A stretch of 64,000 nucleotides of DNA from Spizellomyces punctatus DAOM BR117 (taxonomy: Eukaryota), in the NCBI GenBank assembly GCA_000182565.2, contig KQ257450.1; one strand, written 5' to 3'. The notes beneath the pieces are model-generated. The model did no database searches, had not been told where the DNA came from, and saw nothing but the letters and a program-made list of their open reading frames with translations. Every line of letters begins with the position of its first letter. The first letter of the stretch is position 1. Made by a program: the position numbers and the translations under genes. Positions 9,670-32,988 of this stretch are shown one piece after another.

Positions 9670-10362
9670 TATCCGTTTGCGTATGCGTATGTGTGTGTAT
9701 GTGTGTGTGTAAAATAAAATAGATGAAGAAGAAGAATGTACACAGCCCAAAAGCAAAAGAAAGAAGGAAATAAGAAGCTTCCTAATAATAAATGTTTCAA
9801 ATCGTCATTGCAATGTCATATATGATGGAATGCATTTGAATGAACATGGTAGATTTCATTGGTTGCAGCCACATACATTGCACAGCCACAGAGAAGAAGA
9901 AGAAGAAGAAGAAGAGATGTAGGAGTGTGTTGAGATGGGTAGAGATTGTGTGAGTGAGTGAAATAACTTAGACGATGATTTCCCTTATTTCAAGTAATAG
10001 TAACTCTTTGCGAGTGAATAATGCGATAGTAATTGGAAGATGTGTTTAATCCCTTTGATTATCGGCTGAGCAAACACTCAGGCTGGCTGGTTGCTTGTAA
10101 CTTGAATCCATAGGCTGTGCAATTACCAACATAAACTATAATGCTATGAGGCTATGAGCCAATATAAGCATTAGTAGAAAAAGGTTTGATTGAAATACTT
10201 TACAAACAGAATAAACAATGCATTTCATGTGTGTATGTGTGAGTGAGCGATATTCAAGAGAATGCAACTGCGAATTTCAATAATTATTGTTACCATGGTT
10301 ACATTCATTCTACCTGGTGGGCATTTGCACATTCCCACAATCGCTCATCCTTCGTCTGGAAT

Positions 10363-11663
10363 ATGGCCCCACCACTCCGCAACAACCCATATGCACTCTT
10401 GAAAAATATAGATAGACTGCATGCTGCTGGTCGCATACACTCACTCCCTCCATGGTATGACGCTGTCAGACGGCATCCTCCCGCTACATTTATTCCAAAG
10501 GGAGCAACTCCCACAGAGACGGGCGCATTCGCTCTAGACTCGCACATTCAGAGAGGATCGGCTCGTCAGAATCCTCTCACCTACAGGCCGCACTATGTCT
10601 CCAAGCCAGCTGTTATTGTCTATCCAGAAGACGAGATTCGCGCTGCGTTTTACAGATGGCATCCTCTCGAACTCGCAAGGCCAATTAGTCTCGTCAGAGG
10701 GGAAGAGGATTTAAAGGAGCGGGATTGGAAGGATATCTATGGAGGGAGACCCGATCTCGACGTGACGGGTGAGAGGTGAGTTGGCGTTAGGGCTTTGGTT
10801 TGGTTAGGATTAGGGTTTGGGTTAGGATTAGGGTTGGGTTTGGGTTGGGTTGGGTAAGGTTGGGTTAGGTTAGGGTTCGTGTTCGAGTTCGGTTTAGGGT
10901 TCGTTTTAGCGTTCGTGTTAGCGTTCGCGTTCGGTTAGGGTTAGGGTTAGGGTTTCGTATTAGGGTTTGGGTTGAGGTTGGGTTCGGGTTGGAACTAGGG
11001 CCATGACTCGCTGGCGCTCGTCATGGAGATGTAATGGAGAGCGACATTGAGGGACAGGGCTATGGTTATGACTCGCTAGCGCTCGTCATGGAGATGTTGT
11101 TGGAGAGTGACATTGAGGGACAGGGCTATGGTCATGACTCGCTGGCGCTCGTCGTGGCATCAATTTACTCTTACTTACCCGCTTGTCTCCATAGTGTCGT
11201 TCAACATACACTCTACCTCATGACGCACAAGAATCAATCCCGCCACACTGCCTACCAAAATGCTCTTTCCGCCTTTTACAAGGCCCGTGTTGAAATCGAA
11301 GAGCGTGAACGCGCTGCTCAACAAGCGGCTCAAAAGGCAGCACTAGAAGAACTTTTAGCGGACGAGGAGGAGGATCTCGACGACAAGCAACGCGCAGTTG
11401 CAGAATTTTGGTCCACCCGTCCTCTCACAAAACAATTTGTCGACTGGGAAATGGACGAGTTGCAAAAGAGTCAAATGTGGGAGGGCAAGATTGCCGATGC
11501 GTGAGTGCCCCGTCCTGATACTGTGGAGGAATGTGGAATGTCCATTAATGTATTTTTTTTGTTGGTTTTTTTTAGCAAACAAGCAAGAAGGGATCTTCAG
11601 CTCAAGATGGAGCAGTTTGAAAAGAGACATTTGGAGAGTGACAAGACGGATTTGTTGGCTTGA
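10363..11663 (+). CDS. RSM25: Mitochondrial small-subunit ribosomal protein mS23 (fungal Rsm25)
   Basis: PPWYDAV, IVYPEDEIRAAFYRWHPLELARP, VTGES|VVQHTLYLM; introns 10776-11194 and 11501-11575. Confidence 0.8.
10787..11000 (+). repeat. Degenerate interstitial telomere-like (TTAGGG/TTGGG/TTCG) array inside an intron
   Basis: Many TTAGGG, TTTGGG, TTGGG and TTAGG units; a perfect (TTAGGG)3 near 10935-10952. Confidence 0.85.
11002..11153 (+). repeat. ~65-66 bp tandem repeat, ~2.3 copies
   Basis: Unit CATGACTCGCTGGCGCTCGTCATGGAGATG...GACATTGAGGGACAGGGCTATGGT begins at 11002, 11067 and 11133. Confidence 0.9.
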
Positions 11664-11975: not shown

Positions 11976-12023
11976 TAGGTTAACCCCAATCGCTCACCCC
12001 TTCTTTGCAAGCATTCGAACACA

Positions 12024-14180
12024 ATGCATTCTAGATGGCCAGTTCATGCTGGCCTACGACATTTAGCGCGCCGACATGTTCCTATCCGGCATTCTCACAC
12101 AACCCTCTCCCAACCCCCCCAAACCCACCTCATCACCACCCCCACCGGCCAAACCTACGAACCCATTATTGGCCTCGAAGTCCACGCCCAACTCTTGACA
12201 AGCACCAAACTCTTTTCCCCCGCTCCCTCCCTCCCTTCCTCTTCCTCACCCAACATAGCCGTCGATCCCACTGATGCGGCATTTCCCGGCACACTCCCCG
12301 TCCTGAATGCCCAAGCCGTCACATTGGCAGTGAAAACCGCTCTTGCACTTGAATCCGATATCCAACTCGTCTCCTCGTTTGATCGCAAACATTATTTTTA
12401 TCCGGATTTGCCACCTGGGTATCAGATTACGCAGTTTTGGAATCCGATTGCGAGGGGTGGGAGTTTGGCGGTTGGCATGGCCGATGGGTTACCCTACACC
12501 CGACGCGTACGCTTCATGCAGATTCAGTTGGAACAAGTTGTGTAAAACTGTTTTTTGATGATGTATTGATTGAATGATGTAAGCTGATTTTGTTTATTTC
12601 TTGTGTGGTTTAGGATTCGGGAAAGAGTGTTTTGGGCGTCAAGGATGGACAGACTCTTGTAGATCTGAATCGGGCGGGTGTGGGTGTATTGGAGTTGATT
12701 ACTGAGCCCGATTTGAGGTATACAGCGACGTCACATTCTTAAATTTACCAGTATTGAAAGACTTTTGATAGATCGTCACTAGAAACGGTCACATTTCTTA
12801 AAAAACTTCAAAGACTGTTATGGTACACCTCCATTTCATCTCCCGATATGGATGAGGTCGGTCTTTTCGCACATTAGCTTTGCCCATACCCTCCTTTTGA
12901 TAGTCTTATGTTTAAGGGCGCTTGGCGGTGTGATATCAACGTCTCTGTTCGACCTCTAGGCGCCCCCTACGGAACCCGCACAGAAATCAAGCACTTGGTG
13001 AAATTCACGTCGATTAAAGCCGCCATTGGTATGTCAATACCCCTCTTTCTTTCACTACTATTTTGCAGACACTAACCACCAAAATGTTTAGAATATGAAA
13101 TTGATCGACAAGTCCAACTTCTTGAATTGGGGCAACCTGTCCAACAGGAAACCAGATCCTTTGATCCACGTCTTGCTCAAACGGTTCGCTTGCGGGGCAA
13201 GGAAGGCGTACAAGATTATCGGTAAACATCCCAGTCTTTGTTCTTTTTTTGTCTTGTCTTTATTTCCTTACCCTTCTCAATTTAGGTATATGCCGGAACC
13301 CGACCTCCCATCCATCCACCTCACACCCGTACGTCCCTTGTTCCTTTTACCAGTTTCCAAACATTAAACAAAAACACTTTAGGCATTTATTTCCAACATT
13401 TCCCAAACCCTCCCAGAACCCCTCGACACCCGCCGCACCCGTCTTGCAAAGCAGTACAAACTTTCACCCTACCAAATCGAAATTCTCATGTCGGAACCTG
13501 GTGCCGTAGAGTATTTTGAAAAAGTTGCGGTTGGGAGGCGGGGTGGTAAAGTTGCCAATTGGTAAGCTAGAATCAAGAATGTGAAATGCTGTTTTTCAGT
13601 CTTGACAATGGATTATTTTTTTTTTTTTGTGTGTGTGTGTGTGTATATAGGATTATTGGTGATTTATTTGGATCCCTCCGGTCGCGACATTTAAATCTTT
13701 TATCATGTACGGTTCAACCCACCCGTCTCGGCGCCTTGATTGATCTCGTCGAAACTGGACGTGTATCCGGTATAACCACCTTCATACGATTTTTTTATTT
13801 TTGTGAAAAGAAATAATGATTTGGAATTTTAGGATTACGCGCAAAGGATATCTTGCATACCATGATGGACGGAAATACCCAATCACCCCTCGAAATCGCT
13901 CAAGAACAGGGATGGATATTGGCGAGTGATGTACAAGCTTTGGAAAAACTTTGTGAGGAGCTTTTAGAGGAGTTTCCTGAAATGGTTTGTTTTCTGTTTA
14001 TGAAATACTTTGTTGAAAGTGTTGGATTGTAATGTGTTTTTTTTTGGATAGGCGGTCAAGGTCCGAAACGGCAAAACTCGGGTCATAAAGTTTTTTGTGG
14101 GGGAAGTCATGAAGCGGACAAAAGGCAAAAGTGATCCTGTACTTGTTGCTGAAGTTTTTGCAAAGTTGTTTAAAATGTAA
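12024..14180 (+). CDS. PET112: Mitochondrial glutamyl-tRNA(Gln) amidotransferase subunit B
   Basis: [74 protein letters not shown]; 9 introns. Confidence 0.93.
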
Positions 14181-15357: not shown

Positions 15358-15805
15358 GCCCGCCAGCAATCTAGTTCCTTCACGGCGACGTTGTGATGTG
15401 AAGGGTAGTGTCATGTGAGTGCATGTGAGCGTGAGTATGTAAGAAACTCCGCGTAGGAGATGCTCGGAATCGCTTTCAAGCAGGGTTTTTTGTCTGGGCA
15501 TTATCTAGGTTCTTTTGTCACCAGTGTTTAATTATAAAAATATTCTTTAGAAACCGGGACCTTTTTCAAATTTCTTGCATCACGTTCACATATCTTGTTT
15601 TGAGTGGTATGCATGTGTAGGTTTGGATGTATGGTTCATATCGTTTTTGGAGATAATCGACAATGGAATAATAAAATAGTACAAGTGTGTGCGTATGCAT
15701 CATAACGGAGATAAAGATCTACGCAAGATTTCATTTTTGATACATCACACATATGTATAAAGCATGATGCAAAAACTCCATACCCAAAAAAATCCCTTAC
15801 ACCTA

Positions 15806-18800
15806 TCATGAACCCAAAAGTTGACTACTCGACCCACCCATCCCACCTCCCCCCTTATCCAACGCAACCACAGAAGCACTCTTCGTATCCAGAGCTACCA
15901 CAGAAGCACTCTTACCCACAGAAACCATACTCTGCTGCGATTGCATTAAATTCATGGCAGAAGGACCCGCCACAGCCATCGTTCGACGTCGTTCGAATTC
16001 TCGTTGAGGGGGTCTGCGGTACCAAAATACGAGACCTGCTCCTGCTATGATGGCGACGACGCCTGCTGCGCTTCCGATGATGGCTTTGGTTGCTGTGGGT
16101 GAAAGGAAGGCTTTGTTCGTCCTGTTTTTTTAATGGTTTTTGGTTAGAGGTTGGCGCTTTTTTGTGTTGTTATAGTGCCACTTACGTGTTTGGATCTGTG
16201 AGATTTGGAGCGGGGTCCGCGGGTTGTGGTGTACCACTTCTGTGGTTAAACAAGACGTTGAGTAATCCGCATAGCTATGCAACCCGCAAAAAATATGGGA
16301 AGCAACGTAGCCGGTACGTACATGGTATCCGTTGAGGTAGTCATCTCGTTACCCGTCATTGAACTCGTTGCAATCAAATCCGGATTTGATGTCATTTTGA
16401 TGGGCCCATCAGTGGGTGTACCTCGAGTTGAGGTACCTCCCGTCGAGGTAACTCCCACAGAGGTCCCACCCGTAATAAAACCCTCAGAAGTACGGCTCAC
16501 CACATCCGATCCCGACAAACTACTTGCCAACCCAGATGACGACTCTACCCCAGTTTCCAAAGACGATGATAATGTCCGACTAACGGGTACGGAAGGTGGT
16601 GATGATGATTGCTGTGAGGATGATGGAGGTACACTAATTGACTCGTCAGTGCTTGATGATGCGGGTGTTGATGATTGTACAGTTGAAGGGGATGCAGATG
16701 ATTGTAGAGATGACGGGGATGCAGATGATTGCAAAGATGTCGTAGTCAAAGACGTCTCGGATGACAAAAGAGAAGAGCTTGATGAAAGCAACGTGGAACT
16801 CGCACTGCAACAAATCTTTTAGTTCAGGCTCTTATCCCCACCTCCACCCCAAGATTGGTACTCACATTGATGATGACGATGATGACGATGATTTTGATGT
16901 TGATGACGAAGATGTGCTTGACAAAACTATCGACGTACTGAATGAAATAGCAAAAGAAAGTTCAAATACCGACCCTTCTGACACCCAAAAATGCCCCAAT
17001 CCACTCACCTATTCGTGAGCGAGCTAGAATACCCAGACGTGACAGTTGACGATATATTGCTCACCGTCCCCGTAGGTACCACACTCACAGACGAATTACT
17101 AACAGACGACCGAGCAGACGACAATGACGATGTAGCAATAGAGACACTACTCGACTTTGTTGTCGAAAACACCGGGAACGGAATAAGAGAGGCATTAAAC
17201 TGCACCAATAGGCTCATTGTACCATTCAAAACCCCATTGGAAACAATCAACCCAATCGTAGCGTTCTGGGAAGCAGAAATATTCCCATTCCATTGTATAG
17301 AAACCTTTCCGGCATCTACATCAGACTGCCCAAATCCAGTCCCGATGTCAACTTTCTTTCCATTCGCCATGAGAACAAGGGAGACGTTCACCGGCGCCGC
17401 AACATCCTCAAGTGCATACATTATTTTTAAACCTGGTGTTATGGTCTGGTATCGTAACTGCATCGCATCGATCGTGGTCGTGTAATTCGACGCAAGTGCT
17501 TTGGGTGCCAGTAAAACTCGTCCGGTCCCAACAGATATGGGGTATCCTTCCACATAAATAGGGAGCGTCGTGTTGTAATCTGCCGAAACACCATCGGATA
17601 CCTGTACTATGATATTGGTTGTACCCGCTGTTCGTCCTGCAAGGTACACCAACCGACCGAGCATGAGGTCGTTGACAGATATGACTGAGCCTGCTTGCAC
17701 CATTATGCTGGATGTTGTGGTGGTGGGGGATAATGTTGACGTTGCCGTTGGGGTTTCGTTTAAACTTGCACTTGTAGTGGTACTCGATACTTGCATGGTT
17801 GTTGCTGTTGTGGTCGATGGTGCGTTATTTGGGTTTGTTCCTGTCGTGCTATTCGACTCGGTGGTAGATACATTTATTGCTATAGCGGATGTAGAGGCTG
17901 AGGTGATGGAATTCGTTGCTCCCAGAGAAGTTGTTGGTGTAACCGTGCCAAGAGGGACGGACGATGACGCTGCTGCTCCTACAACAGTGCCCGAGGTGCT
18001 AGAATTCGTCGCTTCCAGAGAACTTGCTGGTGTACTCGTGCCAACAAGGACGGATGATGACACTGTTCCTACGACAGTGCCCGAGGTCGAGACCCCTCCA
18101 ACGCTGCCTGATAATCCCGACGTTGATGCCGTGAGTGGAGATTGGACGTTTAACCAAAGACTTCCAAGTGATGGACCACTAATGACGGTCAAATTCACAG
18201 TATAAGAAAGGTTTTGTGCAGCCATGAAATTGTCGATGGTGACATTCAAGTTGGACGCTAAAGTTTTGGCGGGACTGTCAATCACCGTCGTAAGTGGTTG
18301 GACGGTAACGGTTGGCTTGGCGACAATGTAAACGTCCAGAGCGGTATATACCGTTTGCCAACCGTCATAACAAGAGACATTGAGCTGGAATACAAGACAT
18401 TATTTAACTTGGTAAGACGAATCACAACGGGGGTTGAAAACAAAAGATCTTGGGTGCCTTTTCATCTTACCTGTGTTTTCCCGACGACACCTTTGGCAGC
18501 ATTAAATCGCACATCTTTGGCCTGCATATCATCTGCACGCCTACCAAACGACACAGATAAAGTACATGAGCACCGACCGTTGGTAGGTACATATATCACT
18601 CTCTCTCCTTACCAGGACCAGCTATTCCACGGATAATTATAGGCATCATACAGTCCTCCAAATTTCGTGATGGAGGCATAATTGACAGCCGAGTAGCTGA
18701 TCGATGACGTTCCATAGTTTTTCGTCAAAATGTCAACATCAGGCTGAACAGCGCTGATAATTCCAGTATTCAAAAACGCTCCCCCGTTCTGCGGTACGAG

Positions 18801-21800
18801 CAAGACCCTGGTACCCAACCACTGTAGCGGTAAATGAATATGCACCGGGACGTTAAAGTTTATGGGAGGATTCGCCCCGTCCGTTGCGACCATTGTAATA
18901 TTGTAATCTCCTCCCGTGATGTTTTGCCTTGCCGCGATTTTGACTTGATTCCCGCTCCCCGCTACAAACGTAAATCCAGCTGATACAGTCGTTATCGTCC
19001 ACCAATACGAATCATAAAAAGAGACAGTCATATCCACAGGAATCGATATAATCGAGTAGGTCAATAATCGGTCCGAAAGAACTGGTAAACTCGTGACGTA
19101 GATCCATTTCGATCCACCCTTGGGTAAGACGATGATAAAGTTTGAGTTCAAACGTGGGGGTACTGCTACTAGCACCTCTAAAGAGAGACTTGAATTCGTT
19201 AGACCGTCCCAGAGGTTCGTACCAAAAGTGTATTTCGGAGATACTGTCGCATTCGTGCTCGTTGGCGCATGGGTAAAAACAAGCATTCCATCAGCAACTG
19301 CCTTTTGTGTCCAGGTAGACCCAATCGTTACAGTGGACTGGTTTTGTACTCCAGATGTTACTTGGAGATTACCATCGTTATCCACGGTCGGTAACGATAA
19401 CACAGTATACGTCAGATTCCACGGCGCCAATATGGGCTCTGCTGTTGTCACCGAAAACCAGGATGCATTCAGCGTAATGGAAGATCCCCAAGCAATCACA
19501 GGCAAAGTTTTGCTGATTTTTGGCGGTGTATATACGAATGTGCAGAACCATTGATCTGCTTCCGTTCGAAATCCCCCAGTTGATATATTATACCTGAAGC
19601 AATTAGAAGAGAGATTGGAGGATGCCGTTGCATAAAACTCTAGATTGCTATTCGCAATATCATTCTGCGTAAAGGTGTATTGGCAAGGTTGCACCGGCGG
19701 GCACGGTGTTTGCGAAGGGCTGCAGGTGCAGTATGTCGCATTGTAGAGTGGTACCCTTGTATAATAATCTACCCATAGCTGTAAGGATCCAATCTGTGGA
19801 CTCGACAGAATCGTGTACATTAAGGAACTTGGTGCCTCAAAGTTGGATACCCATTCGAGAGACGACTTTGGGACCACGACTCGTTGAGACGTGGTACGAC
19901 CCGTCCAATCAATGAACATGGTTTGGTTTGCAGTCATTCTTGGTGCGTCTTCGTATACGATGGAGACCGTTTGTTCCGTAAAATTCCATATTCCATCCGT
20001 AAAATTATACGTGAAAGCGTCCCTTGCTCCTGCACGGTCTGTGTAGTTGGTATTAAAAACCAAGCGATTGCTGTTGATATCATCCTGAGTCCACCGGGAT
20101 CCAGATGAGAGATTTGTAACAGTCCCATTCACCAACAGGCTAAGACGAGCTTTAGCCGGCTCGGAAGAGAGTGTATACATCAACTGTGTGGTTGCATTGT
20201 CCGAATCTTGCCAGTTCAAATAGCCCGATGTAATGTTGACTACCGTCGGTTGAGCCAAAACGGCCAGTTGCAGAGCAACGTTGGTTTGTAGTCGAGGCAT
20301 ATAGTTCCATTGTATGGTAATCATTTGAGAAACAGGAGGATTCAGCCCGTCGGTAAAGGTAGCAGTGAAGCGGAGCCAACCAGGCACACCATAAATGCAG
20401 TCGACAGCAAATCCGGTGCTCATATCCTGCAGGGAGAACGAATACGGACCGCCAACGTTTGATGTCGGCCAAATATAGCCATAGCTGTAGTCCAGCGTCA
20501 ACCAGTTGGAATAGCATTCTGCGCTGTTAATCTTTGGGAACGTCCAAATAATGGATGACGCTGGTAGTGTTGTCCAAACGTTGAAGGTCGACAAGATGTT
20601 GCACCTTCGTCTCGAATAACTATCTGCATCACAAAGTGGGCTGAGGGCACCCCTATACTGTGGCGGCGGGACGAAGTTCACATTGAAGCGGTCTTGCACA
20701 ACGTTGATTCCATCTGTCACGCTGGCATGAACGTTTAGCAACTTACCCATTGTCGCATGGCCCATGCATAATCGCCCACTTACTTGTAATCAAAACTGAC
20801 GCTCATATTGGTCAAACTTGTTAAAGGCATATCTACCATCATCAGATCGACACCAATATTTGATGCATTCCACATGTCCCCGACGCTGAGCCGTCGACCT
20901 TTAACCATGAGGGACCCAAAGGTGAGATTACTTAAAAGTACAAATGTCAGTTGGTTCGGCCCATCCACATCCGTCCATGTCAACATATTGGTGGTGACTG
21001 TCCTATTCCCGCTTGTGGGATAGGCAAAGAGAGTCGTTGCGGCACCCTTTACAGGAAGCTGATTGACCAGTAAAACCGTGGCATTCCCAGCCGACGGAAG
21101 TCTGTGCCAAGTATAAAAGATCATAAGCGAAGAGCACTATACGTCCATCAACGTAGTGAATACTGAATATTACCCAACCGCATCGTAAACCAAAAAACCA
21201 AAGTCGTCACTTTTGGCAATCTCCTGATTCACCCATCCCGTATGCCGATAAGTTACAAGGTTCCTGTTGATGTCATCTAGCAGGAATAAGACATTAATAA
21301 CAATGGAATGTGCTCTTGGTGAAAGCTGCACTTAGAATGCAAACCTTGAGAGAATTGAGAGGATGAGAGTGTTCCACGCAGAGGTCCTCTCGTAATCTAT
21401 CCCCGATCAAATTTATGTTAGTACCTAACATGATTTTTGCTTGATATCATCGCACTCTTAAGCATTCGCACCTTGTACACAATCTTTGTTGCATCAGGCT
21501 GATCAGGAGCCAGTGCCTTCAGATTGGTAGATCCAATGCTCTTGGAATTCCACCAGTAAGTCCACATGGTAGTCTGAGAAACAATGACAGGCATGTAATG
21601 GTACTGTATCCGCAAGGTTCCGTTCGAAGTCGTTGCACTGCTCTGGACGATCAGCTGAACAACCTCCGTACCCGCTTTACTTGCCGTCGCCGTAACTCGT
21701 AAGTTACCACTATCAATGTCGCTCTGGAACCACGTACCACCAGGAACCGGCAGGACCGTCCAGTTGGTACCATTAAAGAGTTCCAGCTGATACGCCATTG

Positions 21801-24786
21801 ATACATTTGTGTTTTTCAGCAATGTATACTTCATCTGGTCCGGAGGAGTATCGGCACATGTGTACTGAAGGTGTTCAGTCTGAATTGGAAATGTGACAGT
21901 CGGCATTCCATTGACCGCAGCGCTTAACACAACTCGATTGGAAACCAAAACCGGCCAAGCAGGAATAATAGTGACGTTGTAATATTGTACGGCTGGTAGA
22001 ATGTTGTAGGGATCCGAGACCGAGAAGGCTATCCTCTCACTTCCAAGATTCGTACTCGACACCATGTACTGCACGTTTCCTTTATCAATATCATCTTGAG
22101 TCCACGTCGTGGCACAGGACCATGGCGCTGTAGCAGACGTCCTGGCTTGCACACAACCAAAGTCAAGCAGGGGTCCCGACGACAGCGAGTAAACAATTGA
22201 TGTGGGAAGGTTGTTAATATCAGAGTATTGTAATAATCCGCGAAGAGGCACACTGCCGTTACGTGGACAAAATGCAGTTATGTTAACCGATATCCAAGGG
22301 AGCGAGTTCACAATTATCGAGAATTTTGAAGAGAGGAGGTTAACTCCGTCCGATACAGTAAAGGAAATAACAGCCGTTCCGTTCCACCCTGTCGGGGGAG
22401 TATATTGCAGCTGTCTGTTACTGATATCCAACGCTGTGAAATTAGTCAGCATTTGCTGGTCTAGCGACGATGCATTCGTCAGATTTCCAGGAAACGCCGG
22501 GGCGATAATAGTAAATAGCAGCGAACTGGGTGTAACACTTGGTTCAACGCTCGTGGCCATTAGCGACGAGTCAGAAATAACCAGCGACCCGTTTTGCGCG
22601 ACGGTTGGAGAAATGCTCTTAATTACCGGCGCTGGAAATTGATATACGGATACTGGACCGCTTGGCACAGAGTACGAGCCATCCGACAGCGTAAAGGCAA
22701 AAGTAGTCATCCCGTACGAGGAAGGATTGAATCTTAGTTGGACGTATCCAGAGTTCAAGTCATTTTGACTGAAACGGGGCAATGTAAACATATATTGCTT
22801 GTTAGAATCGGCTTACATGAATCGTCGTACTTACCTGAATGAAACAAAGTAATATGGACCATTGTAATAGTTTGCAGGGCCTAGGTACGTGATGTACCTG
22901 TACAGTCCAGCGCCATTTCCTGGCCACTGAGTAACCGTAAATTGCAAACCCCAGGCATTATTCTCGACATCAGTTCCCCCCAATATGGTCTTCATGTCAA
23001 GAGGCTTGCTGTTTTGTGGGACTACCACGCCGCTCTTGGTCGTGATGATGGGTGGATAGTTGACATAGACACTGTAGCTACCAAATGCGCTGCTGGCTCC
23101 CGGTGCAGTCGCGGTGTAATTCAAGGTTGCTGTTCCGGTGAAGGTGGCCGATGTATTGACTTGTACTTGATTATATGCCACCTGCGCTAATGAAAAGTTT
23201 CCTCCAACTCCAACATTCTTCCATCCCGATGTATCAAGTACTCGTAGAAACATGCCATCTGTAATGGAAACGATCGTATAAATTACCGAATCAACAGCCA
23301 TCGTCGGAGCCGGATTCATGATATGAGCAGGTGCCACGGTTCTCCACGCCGCTCCTTGTAGCCAGGTAGTCGTGTAGGTTTGGTTAGTCCACGTCATAGG
23401 AAGAATGGTTATGCGCAAGATAGTTGGGATGTAACCTGGCTGGGAATCTGCAACGGTCAGATTGACCTCAGCAGTTCCATTCGTCGCGATCGGCTGGTAC
23501 CATATCATTCCATTGCGGACATCATCGACTGTGAACGTGCTATTAACCGGGAGGACCTTTGGGACGCTGCCCGGGGTGGCCATCTTTGTCAGAGTACCGG
23601 CGTTCGAGTAGGCTTGAATTGAGTACACCAAGCGAGTTGCATCATCATCTGTGTCAGCCGCATTGAGATTCACGGATTGCAGTTGAACGGCAACGTTTGC
23701 GGATGTGCTTGCAGTTGTGATCGGGGATACCGTAGGTGGGAAGTTGAACTCAACTGAGAGACCCCCAATGAATTCGTACGGTGTCCCATCTCTGATATAG
23801 TAATTGCAGTTTGTCCAGCGAGAGCTGGGCGATAAAGCCATATATCGGACCCTACCAGAATCTATATCGGACTATGTTTTGAGGGTCAGAAGAGCAAGCT
23901 TTGGGCTTAATTTGTAGAAAATAATAGGATACCTGGTAAAACTTCCCTCCAGGGCCAATATTCGTCCAGGTTCCGTTGATCTTCAATTGCAATCCACCAA
24001 AGGACGAGTCAAATCCCCACCAATCAGCTTCTTCCCATAGGGCGTCCGGAACGACTTTGGACACATACTGCACCATAGCAGGGGTGATCATTGTTATACT
24101 ATTCGGTCTCACCGTGATGTACCCGCCATTGCGTTTCGCCCATGGATCGCTGCACGTATATCTGATATTGCCTACCCACGACGTTGATATAGTTGTATCA
24201 ACTTGCAGTCCATTTATATATGTGTTTCCCGGACATTGCGGCCCGGTTTGATAGCCACTGCTATTTCCCTGGACTAGTGTCCAAACATAATATGGGTAGG
24301 GTCGAGCGTACGTATAGATCGAATGTCCCACGAAGAGATTTGGGCAACCTGTTGCTGTATGTACTGTATCTGTGAGGAATGACATCTGAAAGTATTTGCC
24401 GTTGCCATTATCATCCAGCACCTCATAGGCACCTAACCATGTAAGATCATCAGTTGAGTGTGCTTTGGTAACGAGTCTAACTAGACAATGCCTCACTTGG
24501 GAAAGGAGAGTCATACAACCCCAGTTTGGTCCCATCGGTGCAGCTCAGGCCGTGGAATTTCATGGCACGTTGCGGATACGAACCGCCAACGTGTTGCTGG
24601 TAATAAAGCCGCAGCCCGGTGACAAACCGTCCTGAGCGAGCATATTGATTAAAACGAGAGCGAACGGCACGCGAGTGCTTTCGTGTACATGTGCTAACCG
24701 TATGGGCATGTGTAGTTCTTGGTTGTGCATGTGGCCGCCAATGCTATGCTGGGTGCTAATAGAAGCAATGCAAGTACCCAGGCCAT
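15806..24786 (-). CDS. Giant type I membrane protein: signal peptide, Cys-containing beta-prism-like head, ~15-17 CSPG (cadherin-like) repeats, Ser/Thr stalk, TM helix, short cytoplasmic tail
   Basis: MAWVLALLLLAPSIALA at 24786; recurring cores FSQDDINRNLVTY, WTQDDIDKGNVQY, WTQDDINSNRLVF, FTQNDIANSNLEF with downstream FxFxVxDG; TM AIIGSAAGVVAIIAGAGLVFWYRR; TGA at 15806-15808; ~14 GT-AG introns. Confidence 0.85.
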
Positions 24787-25731
24787 CGAAGGCCAATGAT
24801 GTGGAACTCGCAGCTGTCGACAGGTTGCCTTTTCTTGGAACATGATTGGACTTTCGCTCTCGCCAGATGAAGAAACGACGACACATTTCAAGCTAGACAG
24901 AGGGCGCTGAGTTTCGGTGGTGTAGTTTGAGTGTCTTTGGGGCAATGTTCAGAAGTTATATTATTAGATTGGAAGACCCTAAGGCGAACGTCATCCATCG
25001 CAGACGGAATTAACTTGGCTGACGTTAACTGATTTGTATTGTCCCAACATTTAAGCTAGACCTTAACGCTACACGACACCGATTGAGCAGGATGCAGAAC
25101 ATGTTCGGAGGTTAACTCGGAGGTCAACTTGGAGCTCAACTCGTTCAGGGTTACCAAGTCAAGTTGCTCCGATCTGGATAATAAACTTAATAGACCACCC
25201 CAATAAATAACCTGAAGTAACGGGACTCATTTCGGAGTTTCCGTCTTTATGGTAGAACTACTTCTGTTGCCTTGAGCCATCGGAAACTGCACATAAAACC
25301 GCCGGGTTGAAAAGTGTTAAGGTGACATTGTCCCAAACAACGATGCCTGTTGCCCTTGGAATACTCCCAATTCGTGGCAGCTCCCGCGGAGATTTCTTCT
25401 CTGGTTAGACTTACGACTTTCTGAAAAAGAGTGCAACAAGAACGTCCGCCAACATGGGTCAGACGCTCTGGTGCTGTCATAGTATCCTCGGCCCCTTCAA
25501 AAAACAAACATTTTACGCATCATCAATTGGACAAAATAAACGCATGGTAAACCTTGGAGACACGACACTTGGCTGTTGACCTTGGGCAACCCTGTCCATG
25601 TTCAGTAACGTGACCTAGGATCTGCAAGCACGTGCATTCACGTGATGCTTTTCTGGTTCCAAAGGCCGACGTTTTGCTCTCCCGTCGTAGATTCACCACG
25701 CAAGATCAAAAGCACTTGGATTTGCAACGCC

Positions 25732-26286
25732 ATGTCTACTGGAGGAGTCACTGTCAAAGACGTGAGCGCACACGACTTTATCAAGGCGTATGCGGCTTAC
25801 CTCAAACGCACGGGAAAACTGGAAATTCCCAAATGGGTGGATTTGGTCAAAACAGGTGCCTACAAGGAATTAGCTCCCTATGACCAGGACTGGTTTTACA
25901 TTCGTGCAGGTACGTACCCACGTTTCCCTTTACTCAGTCCAGCTCGTCATACTGATCTATTCTGCAGCCTCGGTTGCAAGACATATATACATCCGTCAGA
26001 GCGTGGGTACTGGTGCCCTCAAAAAGAAGTACTCTGGACGGCAAAATAGAGGCAACCGCCCGCATCACCATGCCCACTCATCAGGTTCCATTGCACGAAA
26101 GGTGATGCAAGCATTGGAAGGGATCAAAGTATTGGAAAAGGATGCGGCTGGGTACGTTACAGAATGTGTGGCACTTTGGATGGTGTGTTTATGTTGTGTT
26201 TTTGCTTTAGGGGACGACGGATCTCAACAGATGGACAGAAGGACTTGGATCGTATTGCTGCGCAGATTCGTAGAAGTGCTGAATAG
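25732..26286 (+). CDS. RPS19: 40S ribosomal protein S19 (eS19)
   Basis: VTVKDV...[45 protein letters not shown]...[16 protein letters not shown]; 2 introns. Confidence 0.97.
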
Positions 26287-26563
26287 AGTATGTAGATATT
26301 TAGACATGTACACAAGCGTCCATACTCTGGCATACCATTTGGGATGCTGCAGGGAATAAACTATTGTGGTGGCCTTGCGGCCTTTGGAATTGCGTGCGCT
26401 CACGGAACGATTGTGGATGGTATTGCAATGGCCCGCGCGTGCGTTTGGCGAATTCCATTGCCGAGTCAAGGGTAAATCTAGCCCGCCTAAGAAGCGGTGC
26501 TATACCTGTGGACCAGCTCTCTCTCTTCGCATCGGAGCTACCACAGGGATCGATACACGCACT

Positions 26564-28673
26564 TCAACAGGAACAAATACGATAATCCCATCTTATTGCG
26601 CAAAGGATGATATTCGCAAATAACAGATATCGTTGACTTACGCTCCCTCCACAAGCAATCCGCGTGCATACTCCTCTGCTGATGCAGCCATATCGGGAAA
26701 CTCTTGCAGAACTCGGTCGTAGTTGTTGCGGTCGAGGCGGTAGGCATGGCACGCCCCTATCGCACGAACGGTGTTCAATCGTGGTATCTCGACGACAAGA
26801 GCGGTTTCTAGGTTTAAAAGTCAGAACGACGTTAGAATCAGCACCCGCTCGCCCCAACAAACCTCCAAAGAAATCGCCGCTCGTCAAAACCAGCTTTCTC
26901 CCATCTCCCCAAACAACCTCCACTGATCCACTCGCAATCCAAAACATATCCGAGCCTATCGTACCCTCTTTATAGATAACTTCCCCGGGCATGTAAAACC
27001 GGTCCTGAAGACAGAGCGCCAGGGACCCCAGGAAGTCTTCGTTCATGGTGTGTAAAACGGGGACGGATGCGAGGAGATTAGGGCCGGATGCTATTTGCTA
27101 TAGCAATAGTCAACACTCACCTACAGCCTACTAAAAAAACGAGATCTGATAAACACACACCTGCTTCAGCGCCAAGTTGAATTCCTCCAAAATCCTTCCC
27201 TCATCAAAAACCCTCCCATGAAACTTCAACCATAGAAACTCTCGCACACGTCTCCGGGTGCCTGAATCTAAGTTTCTGCTACTCATGTACTCGGTCACTT
27301 GGTCCAGTTTCTCGTTGTAAAGACGGCCGGGTGGATCAAGCCCCACTCGGACGGCTTGGATAATCCCTGTCAGGCATCCGGTGATAAGAGCCCCGAAGAG
27401 GACCCAGACAATGTGGAATGCAATTTCAGCTGGTGCGCGGGGTCTGGGACGGAAATTAAAAGGTTTAAACATGACATGGCTCTAACGAAAAGTGCTTCAA
27501 ACTACGTACCGAACCTCCCACGTAAACGGCCAACTATTGGCAACAGCCATCAGCAGTCCCCACGCATACTGCCACCAAAACCCCACACCCACCACCCATT
27601 TAAACTCGCCGAATGTCCAATATCCCGTCAGATTTCCATACAGAAACGTTAAACACGCATTCATATGCAAATACCACAACAACGCGACGGCAAAAGTAGA
27701 CATGGTCACGATAATATGCCCCGCTTTCAGTGCTCGCGCCGTCGTCTTTGAAATGCGCGTGTAGACGGGGTTGGTCGCCAGTATGCGGCGTAAACGGTAC
27801 GCTCTCCCCATCCGAACCAAACGAAGCGGACCCAACGCAATACTCGGGGCACGCTCGTAATAGATCAAATCATACGGTATCGCTGTTAAAACATCTACCA
27901 CGCATGCTGGGCTCGTCACGTACGCGCTAAACGACTTTGCCAGCGATGGGCACGAATCACGCAACGTGACGGCGTTGATGAGAGTATCCATGGTATAGAG
28001 GCCCGTCAAAAGTTTGGAGACAGTTGTGACCCGGTGCACACTACAGCGTTCGAAACCGGCAGCGACGGGGACGATAAAGAGCGTATGCCAGTATGCACCT
28101 ATGGCATGTGTGAGTAGCTAGTGGCCTGGAATGTATCGAGTGAAGGGAGACTTACATGACATGATGAGATCCCAAACGAGTTTGATGGGTGAGGTTGGAA
28201 GCAGACCCCACCTCCTTTCCTGTTTTTCCACCTTAGAGTCCACTATCTGTTCTTTCGCCGGTTCCTTAACCTCTTGTTTCGCACTTGAGGGCTTTCGCAT
28301 CTCCTCAGGTGATGTCTTTGACAATGCAATCACGCTGGATCTCTCTGACGATGCGTCTGACTCCTCCTCAGGCCGGCCTGCAGATGCTGACCGATGCATC
28401 GTTGTGGAATCTGTTCAAAATAGTCCGGATCACATTCCATCTCCTTTCAATACAGGCAGCCGAAAAAAACGTACGCCTCCCTATATCTTCTTCCTCAAAT
28501 ATCACTCCACCGACCCACATGGATTCGGCGCGCACCAGCTCATGACGCTGGTACCGCTCCAATTTCCCAACCAGCACCTGTGTCGTTTGTTGGAGGGCAT
28601 CCAGGTCTGTGAGTTGGCTCGTCAAAGTTGTCCTGGCTTGGTGAAGGAGACTTAGGAGGTGTACGCGATGCAT
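26564..28673 (-). CDS. 6-TM cation channel with cyclic-nucleotide-binding domain (CNG/HCN/KCNH superfamily)
   Basis: S3 DVLTAIPYD, S4 LRLVRMGRAYRLRR, S5 YLHMNAC, S6, C-linker EKLDQVTEYMSSRNL, CNBD GEVIYKEG...GDFFGETALV...PRLNTVRA. Confidence 0.88.
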
Positions 28674-29187
28674 TTTGGAGGTTAAACATATATTTAGCTG
28701 GACTGGATATTCGGAGGATCCTTATAGTAAAGGGGTTGTCTCGGGGGTATCTGACAGATTACTTACCAAGCATGTATTCACCATTTCTACGCAGCTGATA
28801 TATCACCATAGCATCGCAAACATACAAGCATGGCAGGAGAATAGAATATGGCCATACACTATTCACTTCATACATTTGTGAGATACACCATGTCGATTCA
28901 TGGTATTTGTGACATACCTCAAAGGACAAAAATAGAACACATCTCGACAAGTCCTCATGAGGACTCTAGTTTCTTATGACGGTTCTGGGCACTACTTTAC
29001 TGATTGGGAAGACGGATAGAAAATGCGACGATGCGTTAAAGAATCCGTGGTTTTTGTAATGCAATGTTGGGGGTATCGATCGGCATGTCTCATTCTAAAA
29101 TCGTCCCGTCCCCAAATAACTGTGTAAACGCGTACCCGCGCGGCCTCCCACCGTCAGTCGCATTCCCAACCACCTCCCCACCACACA

Positions 29188-29800
29188 ATGACAGTAAGTC
29201 CGCATGGCTCAACGTCCCCTCGCATACAATCTCACAAAAGCCCCCTACTCAGATATACAATCTCTACATTTTCGACCGTCACTGTAAATGCGTCTCCTTC
29301 ACCTCATGGACCAAACCACGCACAACTGCCACGAGTCCTGAATCGTCGTCACCAGGGGACGTGACGCAGGGGACGGCGAAGGGTGCAATAGGAGCAACTG
29401 GAATGAGTCTAGAAGAGGAAGCGAAATTGGTGTACGGTGTGGTGTTCTCCTTGAGGAATTTGGTGAGCAAGTTGAATGCCAAACCTGGGTAAGCTGCCCA
29501 CTCTTACAGTCATTTTGAGCAAAACTAATCACGAATCCCAACAGAAGCGAAGGATTCATCTCGTATAGGACGAATGCATACAAGCTCCACTACTTTGAAA
29601 CACCCACTGGCCTCAAATTCGTCATGAACACCGATCCCCACATGGATAGTATGCGCGACGCCCTACGCATGATGTATTCGCATATTTACGTAGAGTATGT
29701 GACAAAGAATCCGTTGCAGCGGTTGGATGGGCCGATCGAAAATGAGCTTTTTAGGAATAATTTACAGAAATTTGTAAGGAGTTTGCCGGGCTTTGAGTAA
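29188..29800 (+). CDS. BET5: TRAPP complex subunit Bet5/TRAPPC1
   Basis: MT|IYNLYIFDRHC, EEAKLVYGVVFSLRNLV, YRTNAYKLHYFETPTGLKFVMNTDP, IYVEYVTKNP. Confidence 0.93.
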
Positions 29801-32888: not shown

Positions 32889-32988
32889 NNNNNNNNNNNN
32901 NNNNNNNNNNNNNNNNNNNNNNNNNNNNNNNNNNNNNNNNNNNNNNNNNNNNNNNNNNNNNNNNNNNNNNNNNNNNNNNNNNNNNNNN
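32889..32988. other. Assembly gap (100 N)
   Basis: Run of 100 n characters, a typical placeholder of unknown true size. Confidence 0.99.

What the first reader, a model, noticed from the sequence alone, without database searches (positions are those of the whole stretch)
15806..24786. NG2/CSPG4-like giant surface receptor or adhesin built from CSPG repeats in a zoosporic fungus
Seen: hand splicing gives one ~2,600-2,700 aa protein with a signal peptide, ~15-17 tandem ~110-130 aa repeats, a Ser/Thr mucin stalk, one TM helix and a ~70 aa tail. Each repeat has the pattern 'lxYti..P..G.L...(F/W)(T/S)QxDI..G.v.Y...F.ftVsDG', e.g. IVYKITRGPLRGTL..FSQDDINRNLVTYRHTG..DDFGFLVYD. Established: this is the CSPG (cadherin-like) repeat of animal NG2/CSPG4 and FRAS1/FREM, also found in large bacterial surface proteins, and not a typical fungal adhesin module. 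Inference: a rod-like adhesion or substrate-sensing molecule, possibly for zoospore attachment or encystment, inherited from the opisthokont ancestor or acquired from bacteria and then intronised. This is the best candidate for an undescribed system in the window.
Basis: partly seen in the sequence, partly recalled or inferred. Interest (0 to 1): 0.85.

Follow-up and report, generated by a model that had tools for sequence, protein, structure and literature searches.

The report
Chytrid giant CSPG-repeat surface protein
This is a real gene of the soil chytrid Spizellomyces punctatus for a very long, sugar-coated membrane protein built from the same repeat as animal NG2/CSPG4 and FRAS1; databases already list it as uncharacterised, and it is a chytrid-specific relative of the animal proteins, not their counterpart.

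Summary
On the minus strand, 24786..15806, 15 exons and 14 GT..AG introns of 61-86 nt give a 2,669-aa protein. It has a signal peptide, a six-cysteine N-terminal head, about 17 CSPG (Pfam Cadherin_3) repeats, a Ser/Thr stalk, one TM helix and a 69-aa tail.

Cadherin_3 scores E 1.4e-73. An AlphaFold model of two repeats (pLDDT 93.9) matches human CSPG4 repeat 1 best (Z 10.9).

The gene is already in NCBI as "uncharacterized protein SPPG_00685" of Spizellomyces punctatus. That model lacks the first 188 residues, including the signal peptide.

Co-linear orthologues occur in Powellomyces, Fimicolochytrium and Borealophlyctis. No LamG, Calx-beta, VWC or QYWV motif is present. Chytrid repeats group with each other, not by position with CSPG4 or FRAS1 repeats.

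It is therefore a new fungal member of the CSPG-repeat family, not an NG2 orthologue. Vertical or bacterial origin is unresolved. An adhesion or surface-rod role is inferred and untested. I found no paper on it. Interest is moderate.

The parts
15806..24786 (-). Whole coding span of the gene (NCBI SPPG_00685, extended at the 5' end). Exons: 24786-24699, 24631-24497, 24432-23933, 23871-22835, 22768-21472, 21396-21345, 21276-21174, 21101-20784, 20721-18613, 18540-18471, 18384-17009, 16937-16866, 16804-16322, 16239-16186, 16121-15806.
   Evidence: The splice model is. Residues 189-2669 are letter-for-letter identical to database protein P0001. Junctions 3/4 to 10/11 run through continuous orthologue alignment.
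24730..24786 (-). Signal peptide, aa 1-19 (MAWVLALLLLAPSIALAAT). It is absent from the public gene model.
   Evidence: Read from the sequence. All three full-length orthologues start with a comparable hydrophobic leader followed by the first conserved Cys. No signal-peptide predictor was available.
24011..24729 (-). N-terminal 'head', aa 20 to about 215, with Cys at 20, 27, 60, 104, 141 and 168. It spans exons 1-3 and includes introns 1 and 2. No known family.
   Evidence: It is conserved at 24-31% identity in P0016, P0011 and P0004 (BLAST E 4.7e-14 to 1.6e-11; alignments). No Pfam hit at E<=0.1. The AlphaFold model was unusable (pLDDT 40).
17194..24010 (-). Array of about 17 divergent CSPG / Cadherin_3 repeats, aa ~216-2300, including introns 3-10. 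One degenerate unit lies at aa ~1194-1318.
   Evidence: Pfam Cadherin_3. A generic HMM finds 11 repeats and a self-trained HMM 17. A profile of alignment A3 hits CSPG4 chain 7ml7_B at E 4.4e-29.
21967..22629 (-). Two consecutive repeats, aa 634-854, that were modelled.
   Evidence: AlphaFold2 mean pLDDT 93.9, pTM 0.80, two beta-sandwich domains. The best structural matches are human CSPG4 repeat 1: 7ml7_B Z 10.9, rmsd 2.7 A, 107 aligned residues; 7n8x_B Z 10.3; the next entry is at Z 8.1.
17704..18126 (-). Ser/Thr-rich insert of about 140 aa, aa ~1990-2130, inside a loop of one repeat. It contains a 93-nt unit repeated 2.1 times at 17900-18087.
   Evidence: Composition is 23% S and 23% T. Tandem repeat. 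In the 330-residue C-terminal stretch of Borealophlyctis P0011 printed, the stretch before the matching 'F.LNDL' motif looks much shorter to my eye. I did not align or measure it.
16200..17190 (-). Mucin-like Ser/Thr/Pro stalk, aa ~2302-2560, including introns 11-13.
   Evidence: 34% S and 15% T. 27-nt x 2.6 and 3-nt repeats. Powellomyces P0016 has an equivalent S/T/P-rich stretch before its TM helix.
16019..16084 (-). Single transmembrane helix, aa 2578-2599 (AIIGSAAGVVAIIAGAGLVFWY).
   Evidence: Read from the sequence and found by a crude hydrophobicity scan. It is followed by a positive cluster, RRPPQREFERRR.
15806..16018 (-). Cytoplasmic tail, aa 2600-2669, plus the stop codon. It contains a duplicated KSASVVALD(T/K) unit and ends ...QLLGS.
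   Evidence: 30-nt x 1.9 at 15856-15913. The tail is not conserved: the Powellomyces orthologue has a 16-aa tail ending ...KASAP.

Best explanation
SHOWN.
- This is a single 15-exon nuclear gene of Spizellomyces punctatus (NCBI SPPG_00685).
- It encodes a 2,669-aa type I membrane protein. In order: signal peptide, a six-cysteine N-terminal head of no known family, about 17 divergent CSPG (Pfam Cadherin_3) beta-sandwich repeats, a mucin-like Ser/Thr stalk, one TM helix, and a short tail.
- One repeat carries a 140-aa Ser/Thr-rich loop.
- The tail is not conserved between species.
- It belongs to a chytrid-specific family with co-linear orthologues in Spizellomycetales and Rhizophlyctidales. The individual repeats were already distinct before those orders split.
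- It is homologous to the CSPG repeats of animal CSPG4/NG2 and FRAS1/FREM and of bacterial giant surface proteins. It is not an orthologue of any of them.

INFERRED (mechanism).
- The repeats form a long, heavily N- and O-glycosylated extracellular rod, raised on the mucin stalk. If each domain spans about 4 nm, a figure recalled for Ig/cadherin-like domains, the rod is several tens of nm long.
- The rod presents the conserved Cys-rich head, and possibly repeat surfaces, to bind substrate, wall or matrix polymers. That makes it an adhesion or surface-contact molecule.
- Because the tail is short and unconserved, anchoring or adhesion is more likely than NG2-style scaffolded signalling.
- The life stage at which it acts (zoospore, cyst or sporangium) is unknown.
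For: Gene model and identity.
- Model.
- 100% identity to P0001, named SPPG_00685 of S. punctatus. P0001 is an exact substring of my model from aa 189.
- The N-terminal extension is backed by three orthologues that begin with a leader and the same Cys pattern.

Repeats.
- Cadherin_3 at E 1.4e-73.
- 11 repeats with a generic HMM and 17 with a self-trained HMM. The same generic HMM returns 15 repeats for 3 of 4 CSPG4-like proteins and 12 for the 4 FRAS1-like proteins, as expected for those families.
- Model of two repeats at pLDDT 93.9. The top structural matches are CSPG4 repeat 1 at Z 10.9 and 10.3, against 8.1 for the next entry.
- An alignment profile hits CSPG4 7ml7_B at E 4.4e-29.

Family.
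- Orthologues named, with orders.
- Repeats cluster by position across species.
- 38 of 40 chytrid repeats form one clade, SH-like support 0.90, in a FastTree of 205 repeats. Chytrid monophyly is not rejected (p-AU 0.77).

Surface glycoprotein character.
- 66 N-X-S/T sequons, all in the ectodomain, against 39.5 +/- 4.9 in shuffles.
- S/T stalk, TM helix and positive-inside cluster.

Tail. 69 aa here against 16 aa in Powellomyces, with no shared motif.
Against: - No experiment or expression evidence bears on function.
- RNA reads from the one RNA run that laid reads were sparse. About 100 reads were laid from about 6% of the run, concentrated at 15600-16227, with no splice joint reaching the reporting threshold. 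The exon joins therefore rest on reading frame, splice signals, the public model and orthologue continuity, not on transcripts.
- The head domain has no recognisable fold or family, so calling it a 'binding head' is conjecture.
- Several acidic positions common in bacterial and animal repeats are depleted in the chytrid repeats: column 13 is 0% D/E/N against 89% in bacteria and 55% in animals, and columns 77-84 are also reduced. Any Ca2+- or ligand-related behaviour of other CSPG repeats may not transfer.
- Junctions 11-14 lie in low-complexity stalk and could not be checked against orthologues.
- An in-frame ATG 57 nt upstream, at 24843, could be the true start.
Confidence: 0.6

Rival explanations
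1. It is a passive surface coat or wall-associated structural glycoprotein. On this reading it is a mucin-like glycocalyx or spacer that protects or hydrates the wall-less zoospore or links membrane to wall, with no specific ligand binding.
For: The ectodomain is very rich in S/T, with a 260-aa stalk, a 140-aa S/T loop and excess N-glycosylation sequons. The cytoplasmic tail is not conserved. No recognisable lectin or enzyme domain is present.
Against: A coat would not need about 17 individually conserved, position-specific repeats and a conserved six-Cys head kept across two chytrid orders. All known relatives, by recalled literature, act through specific protein or matrix contacts.
Confidence: 0.22
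2. It is an NG2/CSPG4-type co-receptor. The ectodomain captures ligands, and the tail recruits cytoplasmic scaffolds to signal to the actin cytoskeleton during crawling or encystment.
For: The overall plan is the same as CSPG4: a distal head, a long CSPG-repeat array, a TM helix and a short tail. The repeat fold is closest to CSPG4.
Against: No LamG domains are present. The C-terminus is ...LLGS, whereas the four CSPG4-like hits end in (Q/E)YWV. The tail is not conserved in length or sequence between Spizellomyces and Powellomyces. The repeats are not positional orthologues of CSPG4 repeats.
Confidence: 0.1
3. Origin rival: the family was acquired by an ancestor of Spizellomycetales and Rhizophlyctidales from a bacterium, as a giant Cadherin_3/Big_9 surface protein. 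It then gained introns, a eukaryotic signal peptide, a mucin stalk and a TM anchor.
For: - The best non-fungal hits are bacterial-type giants. In one search, 15 of 18 proteins scanned carry Big_9/Cadherin_4, and many of these also DUF4347, FG-GAP or RTX. E-values go down to 3.3e-150 for these, against 1e-23 for FRAS1 and 4e-15 for CSPG4; the best of them, P0006, was too long for the Pfam scan.
- The chytrid-family profile gives 1.7e-104 for the best bacterial-type hit, against 1.8e-60 for the best FREM and 3.3e-46 for CSPG4.
- In FastTree the chytrid clade sits next to 9 bacterial repeats.
- Every fungal hit I could name comes from two sister orders.
Against: - Whole-protein E-values scale with repeat number and regularity. 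Per repeat, the best bacterial and animal scores are close, for example 46.2 against 45.8 bits and 64.7 against 64.7 bits. The bacterial/unlabelled pool was 930 repeats against 184 animal ones.
- Support for the sister relation is only 0.54.
- A tree with all eukaryotic repeats on one side of a branch is not rejected (p-AU 0.82). The same holds for animal repeats alone (p-AU 0.88).
- The chytrid repeats do not nest inside the sampled bacterial repeats.
- The fungal distribution was not surveyed systematically.
Confidence: 0.3
4. The long ORFs belong to several adjacent genes or to a pseudogene, and the single giant protein is an artefact of hand splicing.
For: No RNA read spanning a junction was recovered. 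Four junctions lie in low-complexity sequence.
Against: - All 14 introns have GT..AG ends and lengths of 61-86 nt, and they restore one open frame of 8,010 nt.
- The public annotation joins the same exons 4-15.
- The Powellomyces orthologue of 2,419 aa has the same head, repeats, stalk and TM order in one protein.
- Conserved motifs continue across junctions 3/4 to 10/11.
Confidence: 0.03

Closest known systems
Animal CSPG4 / NG2 (melanoma chondroitin sulfate proteoglycan)
   Same: - Type I membrane glycoprotein with a long tandem array of CSPG (Cadherin_3) repeats, then a TM helix and a short tail.
- The modelled repeat is structurally closest to CSPG4 repeat 1 (7ml7_B, Z 10.9, rmsd 2.7 A over 107 residues, 19% identity).
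- An alignment profile hits CSPG4 at E 4.4e-29.
- The motifs L.YT, FTQ.DI and vsDG are shared.
   Different: - There are no N-terminal LamG domains; a six-Cys head of unknown family takes their place.
- About 17 repeats against 15.
- The repeats do not pair by position with CSPG4 repeats.
- No QYWV PDZ-binding end.
- It has a mucin stalk and a mucin-like loop.
- Chondroitin sulfate attachment is not testable here, and by my recollection is not expected in fungi.
Animal FRAS1 / FREM1-3 / sea-urchin ECM3 family
   Same: Tandem CSPG repeats. The fish, sponge, snail and nemertean members are significant hits (E 1e-23 to 1e-10, named). [quoted passage not shown]
   Different: No VWC, furin-like, Frem_N or Calx-beta domains. 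FRAS1-like proteins show 12 repeats with the same HMM. In the tree the chytrid repeats form their own clade.
Bacterial giant Cadherin_3 / Big_9 / Cadherin_4 surface proteins (with DUF4347, FG-GAP/VCBS, RTX or Por_Secre_tail)
   Same: They are the highest-scoring non-fungal relatives. They have tandem arrays of the same repeat and are presumed surface adhesins.
   Different: The bacterial repeats are far more regular, at about 70-100 bits per repeat to Pfam against about 30 here. They also match Big_9 and Cadherin_4 strongly and carry bacterial secretion or accessory domains. The chytrid gene has 14 spliceosomal introns, a eukaryotic leader, a mucin stalk and a TM anchor.
Fungal mucin-type membrane proteins and GPI adhesins (Msb2/Hkr1, Flo, Als). 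Recalled, not tested here.
   Same: A Ser/Thr-rich, heavily glycosylated stalk that lifts an N-terminal region away from the cell surface.
   Different: By my recollection those use PA14, Als-Ig or no folded repeat modules. None is known to me to use CSPG repeats. No Pfam family of that kind was found here.

Membership tests
CSPG-repeat (Pfam Cadherin_3, PF16184) protein superfamily | Profile match above the curated threshold | tested here: met
   E 1.4e-73, 244.1 bits against a cut-off of 25.5, with 7 stretches, on P0001. 3 of 8 exon ORFs individually exceed the cut-off.
CSPG-repeat (Pfam Cadherin_3, PF16184) protein superfamily | Tandem array of ~100-120-aa units with the L.YT / FTQ.DI / vsDG signature | tested here: met
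   11 units with a generic HMM and 17 with a self-trained HMM, at 105-125 aa spacing. The group consensus keeps these motifs.
CSPG-repeat (Pfam Cadherin_3, PF16184) protein superfamily | Beta-sandwich fold like the solved CSPG4 repeat | tested here: met
   Model at pLDDT 93.9. 7ml7_B at Z 10.9 and 7n8x_B at Z 10.3 rank first among 981 chains re-aligned, with the next at Z 8.1. In Foldseek's own ranking, cadherin and Ig tandems and a fucoidanase came first, and CSPG4 was not in the 50 rows shown.
CSPG4 / NG2 orthologue group | Two N-terminal laminin-G domains | tested here: not met
   No Laminin_G family at E<=0.1 on P0001, the exon 2 and exon 3 translations, or the orthologue P0004. CSPG4-like hits carry PF02210/PF00054.
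CSPG4 / NG2 orthologue group | Fifteen repeats that correspond one-to-one by position | tested here: not met
   About 17 repeats. 38 of 40 chytrid repeats group with each other rather than with individual CSPG4 repeats. The tree has only 106 columns and weak deep support.
CSPG4 / NG2 orthologue group | C-terminal PDZ-binding motif QYWV on a short tail | tested here: not met
   The protein ends ...QLLGS and Powellomyces ends ...KASAP. The four CSPG4-like hits end in (Q/E)YWV.
CSPG4 / NG2 orthologue group | Chondroitin sulfate chain attachment | not testable with these tools
   This needs biochemistry.
FRAS1 / FREM family | Twelve CSPG repeats combined with Calx-beta, plus VWC/furin-like or Frem_N at the N-terminus | tested here: not met
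   None of these families was found on P0001 or P0004 at E<=0.1. FRAS1 and FREM hits carry PF03160, PF00093 and PF19309.
Bacterial giant cadherin-like adhesins | Bacterial secretion or accessory modules (RTX, Por_Secre_tail, DUF4347, FG-GAP) and strong Big_9/Cadherin_4 co-matches | tested here: not met
   On P0001, Big_9 reaches only 20.1 bits and Cadherin_5 15.2 bits, both below cut-off, and no accessory module is present. The gene has 14 spliceosomal introns.
Classical cadherins (Pfam Cadherin, PF00028) | PF00028 match and Ca2+-binding linker motifs | tested here: not met
   No PF00028 hit. Acidic positions common in other CSPG repeats are depleted in the chytrid repeats. The fold is only generally cadherin/Ig-like.

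The most novel reading that the evidence does not exclude
The chytrid family is a surviving branch of an ancestral opisthokont CSPG-repeat membrane receptor. On this reading, the NG2/FRAS-type way of holding a cell to extracellular material predates animals. In soil chytrids it mediates zoospore or germling attachment, or triggers encystment. It could then be studied genetically in a tractable, wall-less, crawling fungal cell.
Probability: 0.15. Interest if true: 0.7.

Novelty: new member of a known kind. Interest (0 to 1): 0.4.

Why it matters
CSPG repeats are known from animal matrix and co-receptor proteins (NG2/CSPG4, FRAS1/FREM) and from bacterial surface giants. My open-literature searches found no paper on them in fungi.

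A conserved, membrane-anchored, 17-repeat protein in two orders of soil chytrids adds a candidate adhesion molecule to organisms whose zoospores lack a wall and crawl like animal cells. It also gives a non-animal eukaryotic outgroup for the evolution of the CSPG-repeat family.

S. punctatus can be transformed, according to the title and abstract of PMC7213984. I searched that paper's text only for 'cadherin', 'adhesion' and 'integrin'. Localisation and loss-of-function tests are therefore feasible.

On the practical side, the public gene model should be extended by 188 residues so that it includes the signal peptide.

The finding is incremental. The domain is already auto-annotated, and no new mechanism is shown.

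Tried and rejected
1. RNA support.
- No listed holder of the stretch was on record as RNA.
- Runs X1-X3 gave contigs that run straight through the introns, so they behave as genomic DNA.
- Raw RNA run X7 gave about 100 reads from about 6% of the run, 83 of them laid only partly. They lay mostly at 15600-16227, and no joint was reported.
- This is neither confirmation nor refutation of the splice model, and it says nothing on life stage.

2. N-terminal head.
- Pfam found nothing.
- ESM Atlas features were below the recognition level, with only bacterial 'hypothetical' clusters at 0.90-0.91. I treat this as uninformative.
- AlphaFold2 on the Powellomyces head with a 5-row alignment gave pLDDT 40. 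It was unusable, so no fold search was run.
- My recalled impression of a VMO-I or beta-prism-like Cys pattern stays untested.

3. phmmer of the whole annotated protein against PDB sequences gave no hit at E<=0.01. Only the alignment profile reached CSPG4.

4. Foldseek's own ranking of the two-repeat model put generic tandem Ig and cadherin pairs and a fucoidanase first, with low TM-scores of 0.22-0.44. CSPG4 surfaced only after re-alignment.

5. Origin.
- Best-hit counting (38 'other', 1 FRAS) is confounded by unequal pool sizes and by unlabelled animal fragments in the 'other' pool. I rejected it as evidence.
- The quick IQ-TREE search left chytrid repeats in four places. Constrained trees were better than that free tree, and none was rejected.
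- All three constraints are mutually compatible with a three-way split, so the root and donor stay open.

6. Distribution.
- The word-indexed searches missed even known orthologues P0011 and P0016 (and, P0004), so they cannot show absence in other fungi.
- No whole genome is held for this window, so paralogues in S. punctatus were not surveyed.

8. Literature. No paper held 'CSPG repeat' with 'fungi' or 'SPPG_00685'. The 14 papers with 'Spizellomyces punctatus' and 'cadherin' (11 listed) were seen as a listing. Passages of two of them were read, and neither mentions this protein. Supplementary tables, where a locus tag would most likely appear, were closed.

Full report
WHAT IS THERE

Stop-to-stop ORFs on the minus strand between 24948 and 15806 form a chain of long open frames. 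A codon-usage and splice-site dynamic programme, corrected by hand at the 5' end, gives 15 exons and 14 GT..AG introns of 61-86 nt. The CDS is 8,010 nt, encoding 2,669 aa.

It is split over exons 5, 6 and 7.

IDENTITY

Exon 9 is 100% identical to a database protein named 'uncharacterized protein SPPG_00685 [Spizellomyces punctatus DAOM BR117]'. Its UniRef name is 'Cadherin domain-...' and Pfam PF16184 is pre-computed for it. That 2,481-aa protein is an exact substring of my model from residue 189.

The public model therefore starts at an internal Met, around window 24091. It lacks the signal peptide and most of the N-terminal domain.

My extra exons are supported by three chytrid orthologues. 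Each begins with a hydrophobic leader, followed by the same pattern of conserved cysteines and motifs (BLAST E 4.7e-14 to 1.6e-11; alignments). An in-frame ATG at 24843 remains a possible alternative start.

REPEATS

- Pfam Cadherin_3 was listed for 5 of 8 exon ORFs, above the curated cut-off in 3. On the annotated protein it scores E 1.4e-73 with 7 stretches.
- I built a generic 106-position CSPG HMM from bacterial, snail and chytrid seed repeats. It finds 11 units in this protein.
- As a control, the same HMM finds 15 units in 3 of 4 CSPG4-like proteins (13 in the fourth) and 12 in four FRAS1-like proteins.
- An HMM trained on the protein itself finds 17 units, 16 of them at i-E<=1e-6. This is circular, so it is useful only for counting.
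- Units are spaced 105-125 aa. One degenerate unit sits at aa ~1194-1318.
- No other CSPG-repeat ORF occurs in the window.
- At the DNA level the repeats are too diverged to register as tandem repeats. Only small duplications in the Ser/Thr regions and the tail were found.

STRUCTURE

AlphaFold2 on aa 634-854 (window 21967-22629) used a 20-row alignment of chytrid, bacterial and own-protein repeat pairs. It gave pLDDT 93.9 and pTM 0.80, with two beta-sandwich domains.

Foldseek ranked generic tandem cadherin and Ig pairs and the cadherin-like C-terminal domains of a fucoidanase first. Re-alignment of 981 of those chains put human CSPG4 repeat 1 on top. 7ml7_B scored Z 10.9 with rmsd 2.7 A over 107 residues, 7n8x_B scored Z 10.3, and the next entry scored 8.1.

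A profile of the same alignment hits CSPG4 7ml7_B at E 4.4e-29. That profile is dominated by bacterial rows. A plain phmmer of the whole protein against PDB found nothing.

OTHER PARTS

- The head (aa 20 to about 215, with six cysteines) has no Pfam family and no useful Atlas match. Its model was unusable (pLDDT 40).
- The ectodomain carries 66 N-X-S/T sequons against 39.5 +/- 4.9 in shuffles.
- A 140-aa Ser/Thr-rich insert sits in a loop of one repeat (aa ~1990-2130).
- A 260-aa stalk (34% S, 15% T) precedes the TM helix (aa 2578-2599), which is followed by RRPPQREFERRR and a 69-aa tail.
- The Powellomyces orthologue has the same stalk and TM order, but a 16-aa tail with no similarity. Neither tail ends in a PDZ-type motif, whereas the four CSPG4-like hits end in (Q/E)YWV.

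RELATIVES

An exhaustive HMMER search with exon 5 found 492 proteins at E<=1e-3, 144 at E<=1e-10 and 22 at E<=1e-30. I looked up names for 30 of the best 150.

Fungal relatives:
- Borealophlyctis nickersoniae (P0011, submitted under the name 'FRAS1- extracellular matrix protein 1').
- Powellomyces hirtus (P0016).
- Fimicolochytrium jonesii (P0015; P0004 was already named).
- These belong to Spizellomycetales and Rhizophlyctidales.
- Two short unnamed fragments from one 3.9-kb contig (P0072, P0131) also look chytrid-like.

Other named eukaryotic hits were all animals: sponges, a nemertean, fish and a snail (FRAS1/FREM/ECM3-like). Four further hits have CSPG4-like ends.

Of 18 top hits scanned with Pfam, 15 are bacterial-type giants carrying Big_9/Cadherin_4, many with DUF4347, FG-GAP, RTX or He_PIG. 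The other 3, the chytrid proteins, carry Cadherin_3 only.

Neighbouring genes are unrelated housekeeping genes: MRP-S25, GatB, RPS19e, a cNMP-gated channel, sybindin and a DBP10 helicase.

ONE GENE OR SEVERAL

Conserved repeat motifs run uninterrupted across junctions 3/4 to 10/11 in the alignment with the orthologues. Powellomyces has the complete head-repeats-stalk-TM order in one protein.

RNA data did not help. Three runs behaved as unspliced genomic DNA. The one RNA run that laid reads gave about 100 reads, mostly on the last exon and 3' UTR, with no reportable joints.

ORTHOLOGY AND ORIGIN

In a FastTree of 205 repeats, 38 of 40 chytrid repeats form one clade (support 0.90). Within it, repeats group by position across species. 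The array was therefore already differentiated before the two orders split, and it is not being homogenised. It also does not map one-to-one onto CSPG4 or FRAS1 repeats.

The sister group of that clade is 9 bacterial repeats, at only 0.54 support.

On an 84-row subset, a quick IQ-TREE search was poorly resolved. Three constraints were tested:
- chytrid repeats as one clade (p-AU 0.77);
- all eukaryotic repeats on one side (p-AU 0.82);
- animal repeats on one side (p-AU 0.88).

Each gave a better likelihood than the free tree, and none was rejected. Together they fit a three-way split of chytrid, animal and bacterial repeats with unknown root.

Whole-protein scores favour bacterial giants. This follows repeat number and regularity. 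Per-repeat best scores to bacterial and animal repeats are similar. I conclude that vertical inheritance and ancient transfer cannot be told apart with these data.

WHAT IT MOST LIKELY DOES (INFERENCE)

The protein most likely forms a long, glycosylated rod on a mucin stalk. The rod displays a conserved Cys-rich head for contact with substrate, wall or matrix material. The unconserved tail argues against NG2-style scaffold signalling.

The chytrid repeats keep the FTQ.DI and vsDG motifs. They have lost several acidic positions common in bacterial and animal repeats, so properties of other CSPG repeats should not be transferred uncritically.

NOVELTY

No paper on CSPG repeats in fungi, or on this locus tag, was found. 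Passages of two candidate papers do not mention it. Supplements were closed.

The domain call already exists in public databases. This is therefore a new, undescribed fungal member of a known repeat family, with an improved gene model. It is not a new kind of system.

Noticed in passing
window 24091-24786 (-): The public gene model (P0001, 2,481 aa) starts at internal Met189. It omits exons 1-2 and the first part of exon 3, which hold the signal peptide and most of the six-Cys head. Orthologues support the longer model.
   Followed up: yes
introns 3, 4, 6 and 9 (window 23932-23872, 22834-22769, 21344-21277, 18612-18541): Four of the 14 introns interrupt different repeats within a 5-nt window of the same conserved F-x-Q|D motif, at phases 0, 2, 1 and 2. 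Three of the four exon ends finish in AG| (the fourth in TG|). This could reflect an old intron copied along with repeat duplication and later slid, or repeated insertion at a CAG|G proto-splice site.
   Followed up: partly
window 17900-18087, 16670-16739, 15856-15913: There are recent small tandem duplications in the low-complexity parts. A 93-nt unit x 2.1 lies in the Ser/Thr loop, and a 27-nt unit x 2.6 in the stalk. A 30-nt unit x 1.9 duplicates KSASVVALD in the cytoplasmic tail.
   Followed up: no
P0015 and P0004 (Fimicolochytrium jonesii); P0072 and P0131 (one unnamed 3,875-bp contig): F. jonesii has two family members, of 1,682 aa (with the head) and 701 aa (repeats only). Both may be truncated models or paralogues. 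Two short unnamed fragments from one contig resemble the chytrid repeats and may come from a further, unidentified chytrid-like organism.
   Followed up: no
window 26567-28117 (-): About 2 kb upstream of the gene, neighbouring ORFs match Pfam cNMP_binding and Ion_trans, which suggests a cyclic-nucleotide-gated or HCN-like channel gene. The other neighbours are housekeeping genes: MRP-S25 at 10243-11501, GatB at 11979-12542, RPS19e at 25609-26356, sybindin at 29040-29489, and a DBP10 DEAD-box helicase at 29979-32843.
   Followed up: partly
window 32889-32988: A run of 100 N, marking an assembly gap.
   Followed up: no
window 15600-16227: The few RNA reads of run X7 pile up on the last exon and the 3' flank, at depth 7 and 2.8, with the first mate on the minus strand. 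83 of the 100 reads were laid only partly. This would fit a 3'-biased library, but the strand convention of that library is unknown.
   Followed up: no
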